Shown: positions 27,001-42,000 of the stretch, one piece after another
Numbering within the stretch: the stretch's first letter is position 1
Layout of the letters: every line of letters starts with the position of its first letter
From: an uncultured Methanosarcinaceae archaeon
GTDB lineage: Archaea; Halobacteriota; Methanosarcinia; Methanosarcinales; Methanosarcinaceae
DNA length: 64,000 nucleotides
Direction: 5' to 3'
NCBI GenBank assembly: GCA_963727895.1
Contig: CAVSHT010000005.1
Span: forward strand, 96,001 to 160,000
Made by a program: the position numbers

Positions 27001-30000
27001 AATCCGTATATTGATTATTACCATGAAACTGCAGAGTTCATCTCCCCTTATACTTTAAAAGCAGGTGAAAAAACCCTCCACTCCGAAATGATATTCCTCT
27101 GTACCGGCTCAAAACCTGCAATTCCTCCAATTAAAGGCCTTGAAGAAACAGGATACCTTACAAGTGATACTGTGCTTAAGCTTACGGAATGTCCAAAAAA
27201 GTTAGCCATTCTGGGAGGCAGTTACATTGCAGCTGAATACGGAAACTTTTTCTCGGCTATGGGATCAGAGGTCACGGTTATTGGAAGAAATTCTCAATTT
27301 CTTCCACAGGAAGAGCCTGAAATTTCCAAACTTGCCATGATGAAGATGTCGGAATACATGCAGGTTATTACAAACCATGAAGCCATAGAGGTTAGAAAGG
27401 AAGATAACGGACAGAAAATCGTAGTGGCAAAGGAAAAAGACTCAGGAAAAGAGATAAAAATCACTGCAGATGAAATCCTCGTGGCAACAGGAAGATCTCC
27501 AAATACCGATATTCTTCATCCCGAAAGAGCCGGAATCAAAACAGATGCTCAAGGATGGATTCAGGTGAATGAGTACCTTGAGACTTCACAGCCAAATATC
27601 TGGGCGTTTGGGGATGCAAATGGAAAATATCTATTAAAACATGTAGGGAATTACGAGTCTGGAATAGTTTACCTCAATTCGATTCTGAACGAAAAAACAA
27701 AAGCAGACTATCACGCTGTACCGCATGCCGTTTTTTCATATCCTGAAATTGCCGGGGTAGGTATGAAGGAACAGGAAGCCGTGGAAAAGTATGGAGAGGA
27801 GAGAATTCTCATAGGTCTCAAGTTTTTTGAAGATACTGCAAAAGGGTCGGCTATGGAAATAAGGGATTATTTTGTAAAGGTAATCCTGGATGCGGAAGAA
27901 GAAAAAATTCTGGGAGCTCATATAATAGGCCCACATGCTTCAGTTTTGATCCACCAGATAATTCCTCTTATGTATACAGAATCAAAAAGTTCTGAACCAA
28001 TTATGCGGGGTATGGATATTCACCCTTCTCTTAGTGAGGTTGTAACCAGAGCCTTTTATTCTCGGTTTTCTCATGAGCAGTATCATCATTTCCTTAAACA
28101 TATCGGGCTTGAGAACTGAAAATACGCAAGAGTGATATTAATGAACAGCACGAATGTGATAGTTAGATAAGCAATGGAATTTGGTACGAAAGCACATGCT
28201 GAACAGCTTGATGATGCTGGAAACGATTATTTTAAGGTCCATTGCTGCCAGGTTTATAAAATTGTTAAAATACTTTACCCTGATGACTTTGAATTGCAAG
28301 CTGCTGCCCTTCTTCACGATACCTTAGAATATACTGACACTACATATGAAAAATTAGTAACCACATTTGGTGCAGATATTGCTGGCCTCATTCTAGAGGT
28401 CACGCATGAAAGAAAAGAAGATAATAAAGGATGGTATTTTCCCAATCTGCACTCTATACGCGAAATTGTTTTAAAATTCGCTGATCGCGCCTCTAATTTA
28501 TCCCGAACGGAAGGTGTGTGGGATGCCGAAATGATTGAAAAATACATAAAAAAGTCAAAATTTTGGCAATCCGAAGACATAAATCAGAAGATATAAAAAA
28601 GACATAACTAAGGAATAATAAAAATTAATTTCAAGTGTTTGTACTTCATATTGCCATTAATGATGTTTGAATAATACAAAATTATAGAGCCTTTACCTAA
28701 GTAAAAAACTGAAGTTATATTTCAACCATTCCTAAATGATTTTGTTTATGTATATTTTCTCTTTTCTCTTTTTCTAGGCTTTTTTTTGAATCATTTGAGT
28801 TGTCAACTTTGAAAAATTCTCTCGATAACAAATCTCATTAGTTTAACCCAATTGCTGGAATTTTTCTTATTAATTTTTAGAATCGCACAGTTGATTATTA
28901 CATATTTTTACAAAACTAAGTTTTCTGCTAACTATTTTTCGAAAAATCCCCGTTTTCCAAGAATTGGAATACTGCCGTCATGTATTTATGTTAACGTCGT
29001 TAAGTGGATATAGTTATAAAAATAAATTTATTCTAAAATATAATAAACGAGCGTTAACAATAAATAGGCTAGTAAAATTAGGCTAGTTAAAAAAAGGAAA
29101 TCGCTGAGAAAATATGAAGATAAATAAACAATCATTGATAGTCACACTCCTTCTGACTACATTAATAGCATTCATACCCCTTGGATTAGCAGCTCCTGTC
29201 GGAACATCAGAAAATGCAACAGTAAACGTTACAAAAAGCTGGCTTGGAGTTAAATTTGAACATGGCGGCAATAATACATCAGCCATCGACTGTTCTCATT
29301 TAGTATATCAAGTATACAGTACGGTAGGTGCTAAAGATATATACTTCCTGAGAGTGCCTTATATGAAAAACAATTCGTATTATGTCAACACAACCGATCC
29401 TGCTCTAGGTGATGTGATCTTCTGGCAGAAGGATGTTACTCAAAACAATAAAACGTACGAGCTTGCCACTCATGTAGGAATATACATAGGAAACAATCAG
29501 TTTATAGACCCATCTTTTATTACAAAAAATGTAACCACAGAAAATATCACTGGTATTTATAAAGAAGGAATGCCATACTTTGCAAGATGGTCTCATAACT
29601 AAGAGGCATCAGTGAAGATATTTTATGGAATAACTAGTATAAGAGATCTAAAAAGATCTCCTGTTTTCAGTTTTAACTTTTTTCAGAATTAAGTTATATG
29701 TGCAACCAATGCAAAGCCGCAAACCGTAGCTTTACCCAAAATTCAGTACTCATGTTCTTCTTCACAAAAAGACTGATCAATCTGCTCTCTTTTGAACCTG
29801 ATATAAGTCTCATTTATGGATTCCAGACATTTTGTGCAGACATCGACTTCTCTTTTTATTATTCCTTCTGAGAAATCGGGAACTTGAAGTTTCACAGGGT
29901 AAACTCTGTTCTTTGTTCCACATAAAAAACATTTGTTATTCCTAAATGAGATTTCGTCTTTTTCAATACTTAGATATGATTTCTGGGCGGAATCGAGGCA

Positions 30001-39000: not shown

Positions 39001-42000
39001 CTACCCCAGTTAATAAAGTCCTGAACTTTAGTTTTCTTGAGAAAGTAACTGATTGCATTACTTGTTGTTGTGATAACTCCAGGAATTTCTTCCTCCATGG
39101 TTCCATCGGGATTACTCGTTTTTTTCTTTATTTCACCCATTTCAGAGCCTCCTTCCTCCAGAGATAAATGTACCCGAAAAGCAGTATCAAAATAAAAGCA
39201 AACATCTCAACCACTGCAATTAAGGTGATCCCATGTCCTCTGTAGACTGTAACCCATGGGTAAAGAAAAAGTACCTCAACATCAAAGAGCACAAAAGCAA
39301 TCGCATAAAGATAGTATTCAACATTGAACTGGATCCTTGCAGTTCCTGTGGGAACTGAGCCAGATTCATATGTCGTGTATTTGCCGGCTGCCTTGCTTCT
39401 CGGGCTCAGCAGCTTTACCATAAACATTGTCATTGGAGGCATGACAATTGCCACGATAAGGAATATTGCAACTGATATGTAGCTATCAATTATTCCAGGC
39501 ATTAATATCACCTATTAAGGTATAGCGACCTGAATCACAACATTAAATAACATCGATTGTAAGTTTTTGGACAAAAAAACTGTATCAGAACTACCTGTTT
39601 AAGAGCAAGCGCTTTTAATTTAGGTAAATGTGTCCTCTACAAATGCTTGAATCCACAGGTCCTTGTATTTCAACAAAAGATTCCTGTATGCAGGCATTTG
39701 CTTCTGAGTTCTGAAAATTCAGATTTTTCCCCCCAAATAGTACAACAAATTGCAAGAAGTTCTTGAGAACTCCTGCTTCGGCAGCATAGATCCAAATGAG
39801 TGAAATTAGTATAATTAATTGGGTATTGTTAACTAAACATAGTTAACTCTTTATTTCTGTATTTCATCAATAGAATAACCGAGTACTTTAGCATTTCAAG
39901 ACTTTTTTATAACACTTTGTCTTTCTTCTCAATCTTGCCAAAAAGTGCTTCAATATGCTGTTATATCCTTCAACAGTATACGTTTCTGCTTTTGATTGAG
40001 TATGAATCGTTTCAGGAAGAAACTCTGCATATGCTCTCCAGTGATCTGTCATCACTTCTCCAATCTCTTTTTTCTTCAATTTTTCCCAGAGTAGTTTTCC
40101 AGTTTCCGTTCCTCTGCTACCAAAAGAGCAGTTGATGAACTTTTTCCCAACTCTATCAACAGCAATCCAGATCCAGCAATATTTTTTTTGTTACCGATGT
40201 AAGTGTGCATCTCATCCATTTCAACAATAGATATCTCATTTTCACTTTTTAGGTCCTCTCACTCTTGACCAAATTTCTTTATCCATTTTTGGACAGAAAC
40301 ATGACTCACCCCTAAAACTCTTCCTATTGAACGAAAGCCCAATCCTTCAAGGTAAAATTGTAAAGCCTGTCTTTTAACAGAGGCGGAAAAAGCAGTTGAT
40401 TTTAGCTCTACTGTATAGTTATAGCCACAATCAGAGCATTTGTACCGTTAACGCCCGCCAACTATACCATTATTTTTGTGACTGGAACTATTACATTTTG
40501 GGCAGTTCATGAAGAAATATATGTTATAAGTATACATATCTATTTTTGTTTACCAATGCAATTAATCGTTCTAGAAATTAGCCCCACAAATAAATAAAGG
40601 ATTATTTATAGTTATTTGCTAGATACTTAATATTATATAAATATTAAGTTTTAATAATTAAACTAACTTTTCTTAAAATATATATATGTCTAAAAAATCA
40701 GAGTAAAAGCAGTAGCTTGTTATGAAATTATACACAAAACATGAATCTGTTATTATTCTTATATTTTTTAACACCCAATAATATAAGTCTCCCATCATAT
40801 AACTGTAATTTAATAAGTGTAGATAATTATATATATAGTTTTATTGTTTCAAATTAAATAAAAAGTTTGTATATAGAATATAAATAATCGTGAAGAATCA
40901 AGAAAAAGAGATATGAAGTTTTTCAGGTAGTTAAAACATAAAAATAGTTATAAACTGAAATATCAGTAATAAACTAGTTATTATTACATATCAAAATTGT
41001 TTTTGAATAATAAATAAAAATTATTACTAGAATAATAGTTGCTTCATTAACGACAAAGAGAAAATTAAACTCCTGAATAATATACTGAGGTATACAGACC
41101 AATACATTATAATAAGTCTTTTCATCATAGAAAAGCTGGTGGAATCGTATGAAGACTAACGATAACTGTGTAGGATGTGGTCAGTGTGTCTCCTTTTGCA
41201 AGAAAGAAGCAATCGAGGTAAAAGGAAAGGCAAGAGCCACTGATGCCTGCATAGACTGTGGGAGCTGTATTGCTTACTGTCCTGTAAAAGCCATAGAGGT
41301 GCCTGTATGAAAGCAATTGTAATTGGTGCGGGGCTTGGAGGGCTTTTAAGTGCATCCAAGCTTTCAAATGCAGGTTACCAGGTCGAAATCTTTGAAAGGC
41401 TTCCTATTACAGGAGGAAGGTTTACAAATCTCAGTTATAAAGGGTTCCAGCTTTCGAGCGGAGCTTTCCATATATTACCTCATGGGCCTTCGGGCCCTTT
41501 AGCCAAAATTCTCACGGAAGTGGGGGCTGATGTAGAGATTGTAAGGTCAGACTTAACAATCTTACGTGTGCCTCAAAAAAAGGACAGCTCGGATTACAAG
41601 AAAGGCTTCAAAGATATTTCTTTTACTAATTTTTCCTCACTGCTCTCTCACAAAGATCGCCTGAAGATTGCTCTTCTTGTAGTAAGTACGCGAAAGAACC
41701 GTCCGACAGAGAAAACTCTGGAAGCATGGATCAAGTCTCAATTTAATGATGAATGGCTTTTGAGATTTGCCGATTCTTTTTGTGGCTGGGCATTGAGCCT
41801 TAAAAGTAGCGAAGTTCCAGTAGAAGAAATATTTGAAATTATTGAAAACATGTATATATTTGGCGGCCCAGGTGTTCCTATGGGTGGGTGCAAAGGAATA
41901 ACTGATTCTCTGGAAAGTGTAATTGCTGCAAATGGCGGAAAAATTCATACTGAAACAGAGGTTTCAAAAATTCTTGTGGAAAACGGGAAAGCTGCTGGCG

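What a model noticed while it worked through the whole genome (the two positions that open the first line are those of the whole stretch)
29743..39502. Fpo (F420H2 dehydrogenase) operon inactivated by two large deletions
The fpoABCDHIJKLMNO operon carries a 280-bp out-of-frame deletion inside fpoL (at C5:130221; FpoL residues 195-289 missing) and a 187-bp deletion (at C5:133090) that removes the 3' end of fpoD up to the fpoH start; both segments are present in every other Methanosarcina fpo operon aligned and in ~95%-identical contigs of other samples. Frh (2 copies), Vht/Vho-type hydrogenases (2), Ech and HdrDE are uninterrupted, so F420H2 re-oxidation in this organism should depend on Frh/Vht hydrogen cycling rather than Fpo.
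Evidence so far: blastn own C5:125001-136500 vs the G133 operon: three blocks of 84-85% identity separated by 280 bp and 187 bp present only in the relative. The same two breaks (query 4722 and 7591, gaps of about 281 and 188 bp) recur in the alignments to the relatives listed in the genus search (57 of 59 genomes matched; call 59). Swiss-Prot: FpoL pieces cover 1-194 and 290-671 of 672; FpoD 1-316 of 374; FpoC 1-62 of 158. Of 119 split loci, fpoL is the only one whose genomic span is much shorter than expected (-92 codons; next -13). Uninterrupted frhADGB, frhAGB, vhoGAC-type x2, ech-like g00241-246 with NiFe motifs in g00241, hdrDE. Contigs of four other public runs (X1, X2, X3, X5; pieces about 94-96% ide [...]
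(Added by a program. Inside this text positions count along the whole contig: contig position 96,001 is position 1 of the stretch shown here. "Call 12" and the like, gene names such as g00115 and contig names such as C1 are that model's own, and its searches are not shown. The text may have been shortened before it was handed on; [...] marks where a part breaks off. The agent that wrote the report below was given it as the finding of a first reader that could run no searches.)

Follow-up and report, generated by a model that had tools for sequence, protein, structure and literature searches.

The report
Fpo operon with two strain-specific deletions
In this methanogen genome the membrane F420H2 dehydrogenase (Fpo) operon carries two deletions that would kill the enzyme, which is plausible and has precedents, but the assembly is error-rich and no reads could confirm that the deletions are real.

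Summary
fpoABCDHIJ1J2KLMNO lies on the minus strand (39511..29743). Compared with 13 of 13 same-genus operons, 187 bp (junction 37090|37091; fpoD 3' end) and 281 bp (junction at 34221; core of fpoL, out of frame) are missing. Contigs of four public runs (~95% identical) carry both segments; none shows the deleted form.

If real, the deletions abolish Fpo. Two frh operons, two Vht/Vho-type hydrogenases, Ech, Mer, Mtd and an HdrD-like gene are open, so F420H2 could be re-oxidised through Frh and Vht.

Reality is unproven:
- 71 of 720 conserved genes carry frameshifts or stops, some in highly conserved genes.
- No run holds this strain.
- Neither junction occurs in the JGI metagenome contigs scanned.

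Corrections:
- The fpoJ split is natural.
- A MacB/FtsX permease gene also has a clean 529-bp deletion.
- Three high-quality genus members lack Fpo entirely and keep Frh.

New context: over 300 IS copies, which argues for real gene decay. Odds: about 0.5 real and recent, 0.3 assembly artefact. Interest is moderate to low, because Fpo is known to be dispensable when Frh is present.

The parts
39128..39511 (-). fpoA, open, 127 aa
   Evidence: NuoA family. Same length as in G004.
38589..39140 (-). fpoB, open, 183 aa. The fpoB-fpoC spacer (38507-38588) is 35 nt longer than in 12 of 12 relatives.
38031..38506 (-). fpoC with three 1-bp indels (near 38373, 38230, 38065), read as two ORFs of 62 and 99 aa
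   Evidence: The extra base near 38061-38065 is absent from contigs of all 4 runs (table 4).
37091..38034 (-). fpoD truncated. It covers codons 1-~310 of 374. The ORF then runs 30 nt out of frame into fpoH and stops at 37060.
   Evidence: profile 2-315 of 372, 566 bits, below the cut-off of 600..
37090..37091 (.). Junction A. 187 bp present in relatives is missing: the fpoD 3' end, its stop codon and the region just upstream of the fpoH start. The deletion ends 2 nt before the fpoH GTG.
   Evidence: Contigs of X1 and X5 have 187 letters between.
36039..37088 (-). fpoH, full length, but with TAA at codon 158 (36615-36617) where 12 of 12 relatives and the 4 runs read Leu
35625..36035 (-). fpoI, open, over the NCBIfam cut-off
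35338..35628 (-). fpoJ1, open. This is the natural first half of FpoJ.
   Evidence: PMC12918732 passage naming fpoJ1J2.
35103..35390 (-). fpoJ2, open, with one extra G in a G-run near 35110-35114 that alters only the last codons
   Evidence: (table 4)
34797..35099 (-). fpoK, open, over the cut-off
34198..34803 (-). fpoL N-terminal piece (residues 1-194), ending out of frame after the junction
34221..34222 (.). Junction B. 281 bp present in relatives is missing (FpoL residues ~195-288), out of frame.
   Evidence: X5 contig arithmetic and loose ends in X1-X3.
33066..34217 (-). fpoL C-terminal piece (residues 289-671), in another frame
31579..33066 (-). fpoM with +1 near 32931 and -1 near 32611, read as three ORFs
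30131..31576 (-). fpoN, open, 481 aa
29743..30117 (-). fpoO, open, 124 aa. Its 3' end is variable among relatives.

Best explanation
The two deletions are real and recent, at strain level.

Effects on the complex:
- The 187-bp loss removes the C-terminal ~63 residues of FpoD, the quinone/methanophenazine-module subunit homologous to NuoD. It also removes the fpoD stop codon and the sequence just upstream of fpoH.
- The 281-bp loss removes FpoL residues ~195-288, the most conserved membrane core of this NuoL-type antiporter-like subunit, and shifts the frame.
- Either loss alone should prevent assembly of a working proton-pumping F420H2:methanophenazine oxidoreductase.

Inferred consequence. 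F420H2 made by the intact Mer and Mtd steps is re-oxidised by cytoplasmic Frh to H2. That H2 is re-captured outside by a Vht/Vho-type hydrogenase, which feeds methanophenazine and HdrDE (hydrogen cycling).

Status of each step. Shown: the deletions are in the assembly, they are unique to it, and the hydrogenase genes are open. Inferred: that the deletions exist in the cells, that Fpo activity is absent, and that electrons flow through Frh and Vht.
For: - Sharp, identical breakpoints against 13 of 13 relatives. Junctions have 0-1 bp microhomology and cleanly aligned flanks.
- The missing segments occur nowhere else in the 19 contigs, and there is no second FpoL.
- Two disruptive deletions in one 10-kb operon, against 2 in 819 other orthologues (777 kb), gives Poisson P about 3e-4 if the locus is taken as given.
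- More fpo genes carry lesions: 5 of 13, against 5 of 92 on the same contig (Fisher 0.002) and 71 of 720 genome-wide (0.007).
- All four large disruptive deletions found lie in dispensable genes: fpoD, fpoL, a MacB/FtsX permease and a GNAT gene.
- There is a lineage-specific IS expansion. G000 has 238 IS1-like, 66 IS240-like and 24 IS110-like copies, against 0, 0 and 5 in 2.4 Mb of relative G004. This is typical of genomes accumulating real pseudogenes.
- G000-unique amino-acid changes at sites invariant in 5 relatives are somewhat more frequent in fpo (133 of 2404) than in the flank (56 of 1279), normalised to G005 (chi-square P 0.04).
- Alternative route genes are open: FrhA x2, FrhB x2, two Vht/Vho-type large subunits, EchE, Mer, Mtd and an HdrD-like gene.
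- Precedent: HQ genomes G008, G018 and G058 lack FpoL, FpoD and FpoF and keep FrhA. Of 39 HQ genus genomes, 0 lack both Fpo and Frh.
- In M. barkeri, Frh-dependent H2 cycling is the preferred route. [quoted passage not shown]
Against: - No read-level support. The best public run holds 0.23 of the words, so it is another strain.
- Neither junction 30-mer was found in the JGI metagenome contigs, and junction B was not found in the genome collection.
- The consensus is poor: 59 frame switches and 42 in-frame stops in 720 conserved orthologues. Genes of at least 88% amino-acid identity are hit, such as an MCM helicase and a thermosome subunit.
- Lesions are over-dispersed among genes, which suggests technical bad patches.
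- By the same tblastn method, fpo small lesions alone are not clearly above background: 3 of 11 genes against 71 of 720, P 0.09.
- Allowing for look-elsewhere, about 0.07 close pairs are expected among ~10 random deletions. That is only borderline.
- NG86 omega for G000 pairs is 0.080-0.093, against 0.073-0.086 for other pairs, so there is no long relaxation.
- The GC-to-AT excess in fpo extends into the two nearest flank genes, so it does not stop at the operon border.
- No lesions occur in fpoA, B, N or O.
Confidence: 0.5

Rival explanations
1. Assembly artefact. The two gaps are consensus or backbone errors of a low-accuracy, probably long-read, metagenome assembly, sitting in a locally bad patch. 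In this reading the organism has an intact Fpo.
For: - 9.9% of conserved orthologues carry central frameshifts or stops, some of them in very conserved genes.
- Lesions cluster in genes far beyond Poisson expectation. Observed gene counts with 0/1/2/3/4 lesions are 348/27/11/3/1 among 390 genes.
- All nine fpo lesions lie within 32.6-38.4 kb, while fpoA, B, N and O are clean.
- The small indels sit mostly in short homopolymers.
- The excess of unique substitutions reaches the neighbouring non-fpo genes at 41.3-43.6 kb.
- The junctions were not seen in any other data.
Against: - Flanks align cleanly right up to both junctions.
- No large deletion was found in any clearly essential gene among 819 orthologues.
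- Contig C5 is otherwise among the cleaner contigs, at 0.069 lesions per kb.
- No alternative contig carries the segments.
- I know of no common assembler error that removes 187-529 bp of unique sequence. That is recalled, not tested.
Confidence: 0.3
2. The deletions are real but belong to a minority or mixed population. They exist in some cells of the sampled population, and the assembler happened to follow that haplotype, while most cells of the species keep a working Fpo.
For: All four public runs with ~95% identical relatives carry the intact form only. dN/dS shows the operon was under purifying selection until very recently.
Against: No second haplotype contig is in the assembly. Nothing can be said about allele frequencies without reads.
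Confidence: 0.1
3. The loss is real, but the replacement route is different. F420H2 is re-oxidised mainly by a soluble HdrA2B2C2-type bifurcating complex, with ferredoxin going to Ech, or the strain lives by routes that need little F420H2 oxidation (acetate, or H2 plus methyl compounds). Frh/Vht hydrogen cycling would then not be the main route.
For: Several CCG-domain (HdrB/HdrD-like) genes are open, including a 1037-aa fused one, and there are two further FrhB-like genes. A preprint passage states that Methanosarcina HdrA2B2C2 oxidises F420H2 (10.1101/2021.07.06.451242, passages read).
Against: M. barkeri genetics assign the flux to Frh and Fpo, and the double mutant is not viable (PMC6030560, passages). 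Frh is kept in two open copies here and in all 3 Fpo-less HQ genus genomes.
Confidence: 0.1

Closest known systems
Fpo, the F420H2:methanophenazine oxidoreductase operon fpoABCDHIJ1J2KLMNO of Methanosarcina (M. mazei, M. acetivorans, M. barkeri)
   Same: Same genes in the same order. It is 77-88% identical in DNA to 13 same-genus operons. FpoI, J1, J2 and K score over the NCBIfam cut-offs, and fpoF lies elsewhere next to mer.
   Different: FpoD lacks its C-terminal ~63 residues. FpoL lacks residues ~195-288 and is frame-shifted. FpoC and FpoM are frame-shifted, FpoH has a stop, and fpoF has a 1-bp frameshift in an A/G run.
Laboratory fpo deletion mutants of M. barkeri and M. mazei (branched electron transport chain, hydrogen cycling)
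   Same: Fpo is absent, while Frh, Vht, Ech and Hdr remain. The published mutants stay viable through Frh-dependent H2 cycling (PMC6030560, passages).
   Different: This would be a natural, unselected event in an environmental genome. No phenotype is known and it is not confirmed by reads.
Same-genus genomes that lack Fpo altogether (G008, G018, G058; 99, 92 and 92% complete)
   Same: They have no functional Fpo, and FrhA is retained over the cut-off.
   Different: Those genomes have no fpo or fpoF genes left at all, and by mcr-region identity (85-89%) they are not the closest relatives. G000 still has the whole operon at omega of about 0.09, so its event is much younger.
Fpo' (Fpo without FpoF) of Methanothrix and Methanomassiliicoccales-type complexes
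   Same: A variant of the same complex with a missing part.
   Different: There the membrane and Q modules are intact and only the F420 input subunit is absent (PMC12918732, passages). Here the Q module and a pump subunit are broken, so no ferredoxin-driven Fpo' is possible either.

Membership tests
Fpo operon (F420H2 dehydrogenase) | Genes fpoA-O in the canonical order, with Fpo-specific family matches | tested here: met
   FpoC, D, H, I, J, K and L hit the NCBIfam F420_dehyd_Fpo* models best. The order is A-B-C-D-H-I-J1-J2-K-L-M-N-O.
Fpo operon (F420H2 dehydrogenase) | Every subunit full length and over the curated cut-off | tested here: not met
   
- FpoD scores 566 bits against a cut-off of 600, covering profile 2-315 of 372.
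- FpoL pieces score 365 and 653 bits against 1050.
- FpoH pieces score 222 and 298 bits against 475.
- FpoC pieces score 50 and 62 bits against 220.
Fpo operon (F420H2 dehydrogenase) | F420-binding input subunit FpoF present | tested here: inconclusive
   The gene is found at G000:C3:316230-317153 (536 bits, over the cut-off of 475). Its first ~44 profile positions lie in another frame, after a 1-bp shift in an A5/G4 run, and the start codon is TTG. This could be an assembly error.
Working complex-I-type proton pump | NuoL-type subunit with an uninterrupted antiporter core, and NuoD-type subunit with its C-terminal region | tested here: not met
   FpoL residues ~195-288 and the last ~63 residues of FpoD are absent. 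FpoL is homologous to NuoL, ND5 and Nqo12 over its whole length. Which named helices and residues are lost is recalled, not tested.
Hydrogen-cycling electron transport (Frh + Vht + Ech + HdrDE) | Open genes for FrhA/FrhB, a Vht/Vho-type [NiFe] large subunit, EchE and HdrD | tested here: met
   - FrhA x2 (460 and 466 aa frames) and FrhB x2.
- Two NiFeSe_Hases frames of 591 and 598 aa on C13.
- EchE-like frame of 367 aa.
- CCG protein of 425 aa on C7.
Vht versus Vhx type, and HdrD identity, were not resolved.
Hydrogen-cycling electron transport (Frh + Vht + Ech + HdrDE) | HdrE and VhtC cytochrome b subunits, maturation genes, and measurable hydrogenase activity | not tested
   The PF02665 search found nothing, but it also missed the M. 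acetivorans control, so it was the wrong model. Activity is not testable here.
Genuine pseudogene (biological decay) | Lesions confirmed in reads or in independent assemblies | tested here: not met
   There is no run of this strain. Four related runs show only the intact form. Junction 30-mers are absent from JGI metagenome contigs, and junction B is absent from genome contigs.
Genuine pseudogene (biological decay) | Relaxed selection compared with relatives and neighbouring genes | tested here: inconclusive
   - Omega is 0.080-0.093 against 0.073-0.086.
- Unique amino-acid changes at invariant sites are 5.5% in fpo against 4.4% in the flank (P 0.04 after normalising).
- The C>T:T>C ratio is 211:47 in fpo against 71:41 in the flank (P 2e-4), but the nearest flank genes share the bias.

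The most novel reading that the evidence does not exclude
A wild Methanosarcina-type methanogen caught just after it knocked out its F420H2 dehydrogenase. The event sits within the last ~1% of neutral divergence, in a lineage with a burst of more than 300 IS copies. The lineage would be converging on the Fpo-less, Frh-retaining state already fixed in three other species of the genus. This would be field evidence that Frh/Vht hydrogen cycling alone sustains F420H2 re-oxidation in nature, and that Fpo and Frh are interchangeable modules of which only one must be kept.
Probability: 0.35. Interest if true: 0.5.

Novelty: new member of a known kind. Interest (0 to 1): 0.3.

Why it matters
If real, this is a natural counterpart of the laboratory fpo knock-outs. 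It suggests that in hydrogenase-positive members of this genus Fpo is expendable in situ. Among 39 high-quality genus genomes, 3 lack Fpo, 8 lack Frh and none lacks both. That pattern fits a rule that at least one F420H2-oxidising branch must be kept, but the count is small and the genomes are related.

It would also mark this lineage as one in early reductive evolution, given its IS burst. It does not change the known model of Methanosarcina energy conservation.

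Tried and rejected
1. Small lesions as evidence. A first background of 114 genes and a larger one counted many in-frame stops. 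One search showed that many of these lie in the first ~20 residues of over-extended ORFs, for example the AlaRS 'stop' at residue 8. I therefore recounted central lesions only. The recount dropped:
- orthologues under 75% amino-acid identity or under 70% coverage;
- lesions in the first 40 or last 15 residues;
- fpoC and fpoO, which fell out under the same filters.

2. Nucleotide gap counting was rejected, because paired +1/-1 gaps are alignment noise.

3. The 14 non-synonymous to 6 synonymous ratio among G000-derived changes comes from only 40 'best supported' rows of 754, and it could equally reflect consensus errors.

4. The GC-to-AT excess is not operon-bounded.

5. Both junction searches in metagenome contigs, and the junction B search in genome contigs, found nothing.

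6. The search for related loci with FpoN returned only distant bacterial NuoN genes and no organism names.

7. The PF02665 search for HdrE was the wrong model.

10. Paper searches for a natural fpo pseudogene or loss in Methanosarcina listed 3 and 8 papers (5 shown). None describes one in its title or abstract. I read passages in two of them only, and saw no supplements.

11. No structure prediction or complex prediction was run, because neither would bear on the open question.

Full report
**Anatomy.** The minus strand of the window from 39511 to 29743 carries fpoA, B, C, D, H, I, J1, J2, K, L, M, N and O.
- NCBIfam places FpoI, J1, J2 and K over their curated cut-offs.
- FpoD matches profile positions 2-315 of 372 (566 bits, cut-off 600).
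- FpoL is in two ORFs matching 1-190 and 287-669 of 669.
- FpoH is in two pieces (8-149 and 159-339 of 339), and FpoC is in two pieces.
- FpoM is in three ORFs.

**The two deletions.**
- A 5.1-kb query across fpoD to fpoL matched 13 same-genus genomes, each in three blocks of 76-88% identity. The breaks fall at the same two query positions, equal to window 37090/37091 and 34221.
- The whole operon aligned to 13 of 13 fetched relatives with the same breaks.
- In a MAFFT alignment, 12 of 12 relatives hold 187 and 281 bases that G000 lacks. G001 was left out because its contig ends inside fpoL.
- The second gap is 281, not 280, because one base can be placed on either side. Both lengths are out of frame.
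- The junctions share 0-1 base of microhomology, and the flanks align cleanly up to the break.
- Deletion A removes fpoD codons from about 311 to the stop and ends 2 nt before the fpoH GTG. The fpoD frame then runs 30 nt into fpoH and stops at 37060.
- Deletion B removes FpoL residues ~195-288. tblastn with G004 proteins covers FpoL 1-194 and 289-671, and FpoD 1-316.
- FpoL is homologous to NuoL, ND5 and Nqo12 along its length. Many ND5 chains align only from about residue 231 on, which is inside the lost stretch.
- The lost segments occur nowhere else in the 19 contigs, and there is no second FpoL.
- In the genus, FpoL was found in 43 of 59 genomes at E no greater than 1e-50. All 40 complete matches cover profile positions 1-669 (one covers 3-669) in frames of 675-678 aa.

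**Public runs.**
- No run holds this strain; the best share of words is 0.23.
- I laid X1, X2, X3 and X5 on 33000-38100 at 88% likeness.
- X1 and X5 each have a contig that bridges 37090|37091 with 187 letters between.
- One X5 contig of 683 letters puts 346 letters on 34221-34566 and 56 beyond 34217, leaving 281 between.
- X1, X2 and X3 show loose ends at both junctions, and no contig joins the sides directly.
- So close relatives are intact, and the deleted form has no independent witness.
- Exact 30-mers across each junction were absent from JGI metagenome contigs. The junction B 30-mer was also absent from the genome collection, from which the own record may be left out.

**Small lesions.** Against 12 relatives, G000 alone has the following:
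- three 1-bp indels in fpoC;
- +1 and -1 in fpoM;
- one extra G in the last codons of fpoJ2;
- TAA for Leu at fpoH codon 158;
- 35 extra bases in the fpoB-fpoC spacer.

The split of fpoJ into two ORFs is natural. The same two ORFs stand in G004, G016 and G002, and the M. acetivorans operon is written fpoABCDHJ1J2KLMNO1 (PMC12918732, passages read). fpoF lies next to mer on contig C3 and has a 1-bp shift in an A5/G4 run and a TTG start.

**How good is the assembly?** I compared ORFs of 2.4 Mb of relative G004 with G000.
- Counted were orthologues of at least 75% amino-acid identity and 70% coverage.
- Lesions in the first 40 and last 15 residues were dropped, because one search showed that many 'stops' lie in over-extended ORF starts.
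- On this count, 720 orthologues (688 kb) carry 59 frame switches and 42 in-frame stops. That is 0.147 per kb, with 71 genes hit.
- Contig C5 is cleaner, with 5 of 92 genes hit (0.069 per kb).
- Hit genes include very conserved ones: an MCM helicase, a thermosome subunit, an isopropylmalate/isocitrate dehydrogenase and a CbiX-type chelatase.
- Lesions are strongly clustered in genes.
- By the same method fpo has 5 of 13 genes hit (Fisher 0.002 against C5, 0.007 against the genome). Without the two deletion genes it has 3 of 11 (0.04 and 0.09). The enrichment is suggestive, not decisive.

**Are large deletions special to fpo?** Among 819 orthologues (777 kb) I found the following:
- One clean, out-of-frame, G000-only deletion of 529 bp in a MacB/FtsX permease gene at G000:C4:318134. 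Of the 58 other genus genomes, 49 match this gene, most of them over nearly its whole length in one piece.
- A probable deletion of about 230 bp in a GNAT acetyltransferase gene, which I did not follow up.
- In-frame changes in domain number in a copper ATPase and a PAS kinase, which are ordinary variation.
- No large deletion in a clearly essential gene.

At that rate, two in 10.2 kb have P of about 3e-4 for a locus fixed in advance. But about 0.07 close pairs are expected among ~10 random deletions genome-wide, so the clustering is only borderline once the search for oddities is allowed for.

**Selection.**
- NG86 omega over all fpo genes is 0.080-0.093 for pairs with G000, against 0.073-0.086 for pairs among six relatives. 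The operon was therefore under purifying selection for nearly all of its divergence.
- Amino-acid changes unique to G000 at sites invariant in five relatives number 133 of 2404 in fpo and 56 of 1279 in five upstream genes. For G005 the figures are 103 of 2374 and 70 of 1293 (P 0.04).
- At nucleotide level, G000 shows C>T:T>C of 211:47 in fpo against 71:41 in the flank (P 2e-4). The two nearest flank genes (41307-43616) share the bias (36:10), so it is regional and not bounded by the operon.
- Of 20 G000-derived differences among the 40 rows, 14 are non-synonymous, several at invariant Gly residues. Consensus errors would look the same.
- Together these results allow an inactivation no older than roughly 1% of neutral divergence, and they do not prove one.

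**Genome context.**
- G000 holds 238 copies (at least half length) of an IS1-like element, 66 of an IS240-like one and 24 of an IS110-like one. The 2.4 Mb of G004 holds 0, 0 and 5.
- The window alone has six IS1-like copies, an alpha-amylase fragment next to an IS, and split trkA-like and nucleotidyltransferase genes.
- Such bursts go with real gene decay, and this raises the prior for real deletions.

**Alternative route and precedents.**
- Open in G000 are two FrhA and two FrhB genes, two Vht/Vho-type large subunits, EchE, Mer, Mtd and a 425-aa CCG (HdrD-like) protein. HdrE was not tested, because one search used a wrong model.
- In M. barkeri, F420H2 is preferentially oxidised through Frh-dependent H2 cycling. 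Fpo is the slower alternative, both conserve 4 H+ per 2 e-, and viability is lost only when frh and fpo are both deleted (PMC6030560, passages read).
- In M. acetivorans, which lacks hydrogenase activity, Fpo is essential on trimethylamine (PMC12918732, passages).
- Three high-quality genus genomes (G008, G018, G058) have no FpoL, FpoD or FpoF, and all have FrhA. Eight high-quality genomes lack FrhA, and all have FpoL. None of the 39 lacks both.
- With an expectation of 0.6 double-lacking genomes and related genomes, this agrees with the rule but is no test of it.
- A published survey found a complete Fpo in 27 of 33 Ack+Pta genomes with Rnf or Ech (PMC12918732, passage; Table S1 not seen).

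**Verdict.**
- The reading that Fpo is dead and F420H2 goes through Frh and Vht is the best one if the deletions are real. I put that at about one half, plus about 0.1 for a minority haplotype. An assembly artefact stands at about 0.3.
- Even if real, this is a young natural example of a known and experimentally understood dispensability, in a genus where full Fpo loss already exists.

Noticed in passing
window 1334-1978, 4299-4951, 9899-10551, 15589-16271, 58327-58793, 63185-63699 (IS1-like); 5351-6055 (IS240-like); 59236-60287 (IS110-like): There is a massive lineage-specific IS expansion. G000 has 238 IS1-like, 66 IS240-like and 24 IS110-like copies, against 0, 0 and 5 in 2.4 Mb of relative G004. 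That is roughly 7% of the genome.
   Followed up: partly
G000:C4:317679-318346 (outside the window): A MacB/FtsX-type ABC permease gene has a clean, out-of-frame 529-bp deletion seen only in G000. Of the 58 other genus genomes, 49 match this gene, most over nearly its whole length. It is the same class of event as the fpo deletions.
   Followed up: partly
G000:C3:316230-317153 (locus L015:974-2058): fpoF, directly downstream of an open mer gene, has a 1-bp frameshift in an A5/G4 run and a TTG start.
   Followed up: partly
genus-wide (G handles): Fpo and Frh are distributed in a complementary way among 39 high-quality genus genomes: 3 lack FpoL (all have FrhA), 8 lack FrhA (all have FpoL), and none lacks both. 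G008, G018 and G058 also lack FpoD and FpoF.
   Followed up: partly
window 29743-43616: There is a regional excess of G:C-to-A:T changes unique to G000. C>T:T>C is 211:47 in fpo and 36:10 in the next two genes, fading to about 1:1 beyond 46 kb. The cause is unknown. Candidates are consensus error, relaxed codon selection, or a recombined segment.
   Followed up: partly
window 41307-46895: Divergently upstream of fpoA lies a block of intact genes: an FAD amine-oxidase-like gene, three radical-SAM/CofH-like genes and cofC (F420 biosynthesis).
   Followed up: no
window 51618-52705 and 16285-17219: A TrkA-like gene and an NTP_transf_5 nucleotidyltransferase gene are each split into two adjacent ORFs. 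They could be assembly errors or real breaks.
   Followed up: no
window 5351-6873: An alpha-amylase catalytic-domain fragment (profile 7-96 of 446) starts right after an IS240-like transposase gene. This is probably an IS-disrupted gene.
   Followed up: no
G000:C9:42131-48751 (outside the window): There is a second complex-I/Mrp-like cluster, with a 561-aa NuoD-like frame and a 647-aa NuoL-like frame that contains one TAG. Its identity was not examined.
   Followed up: no
window 38507-38588: The fpoB-fpoC spacer is 35 nt longer than in 12 of 12 relatives.
   Followed up: no
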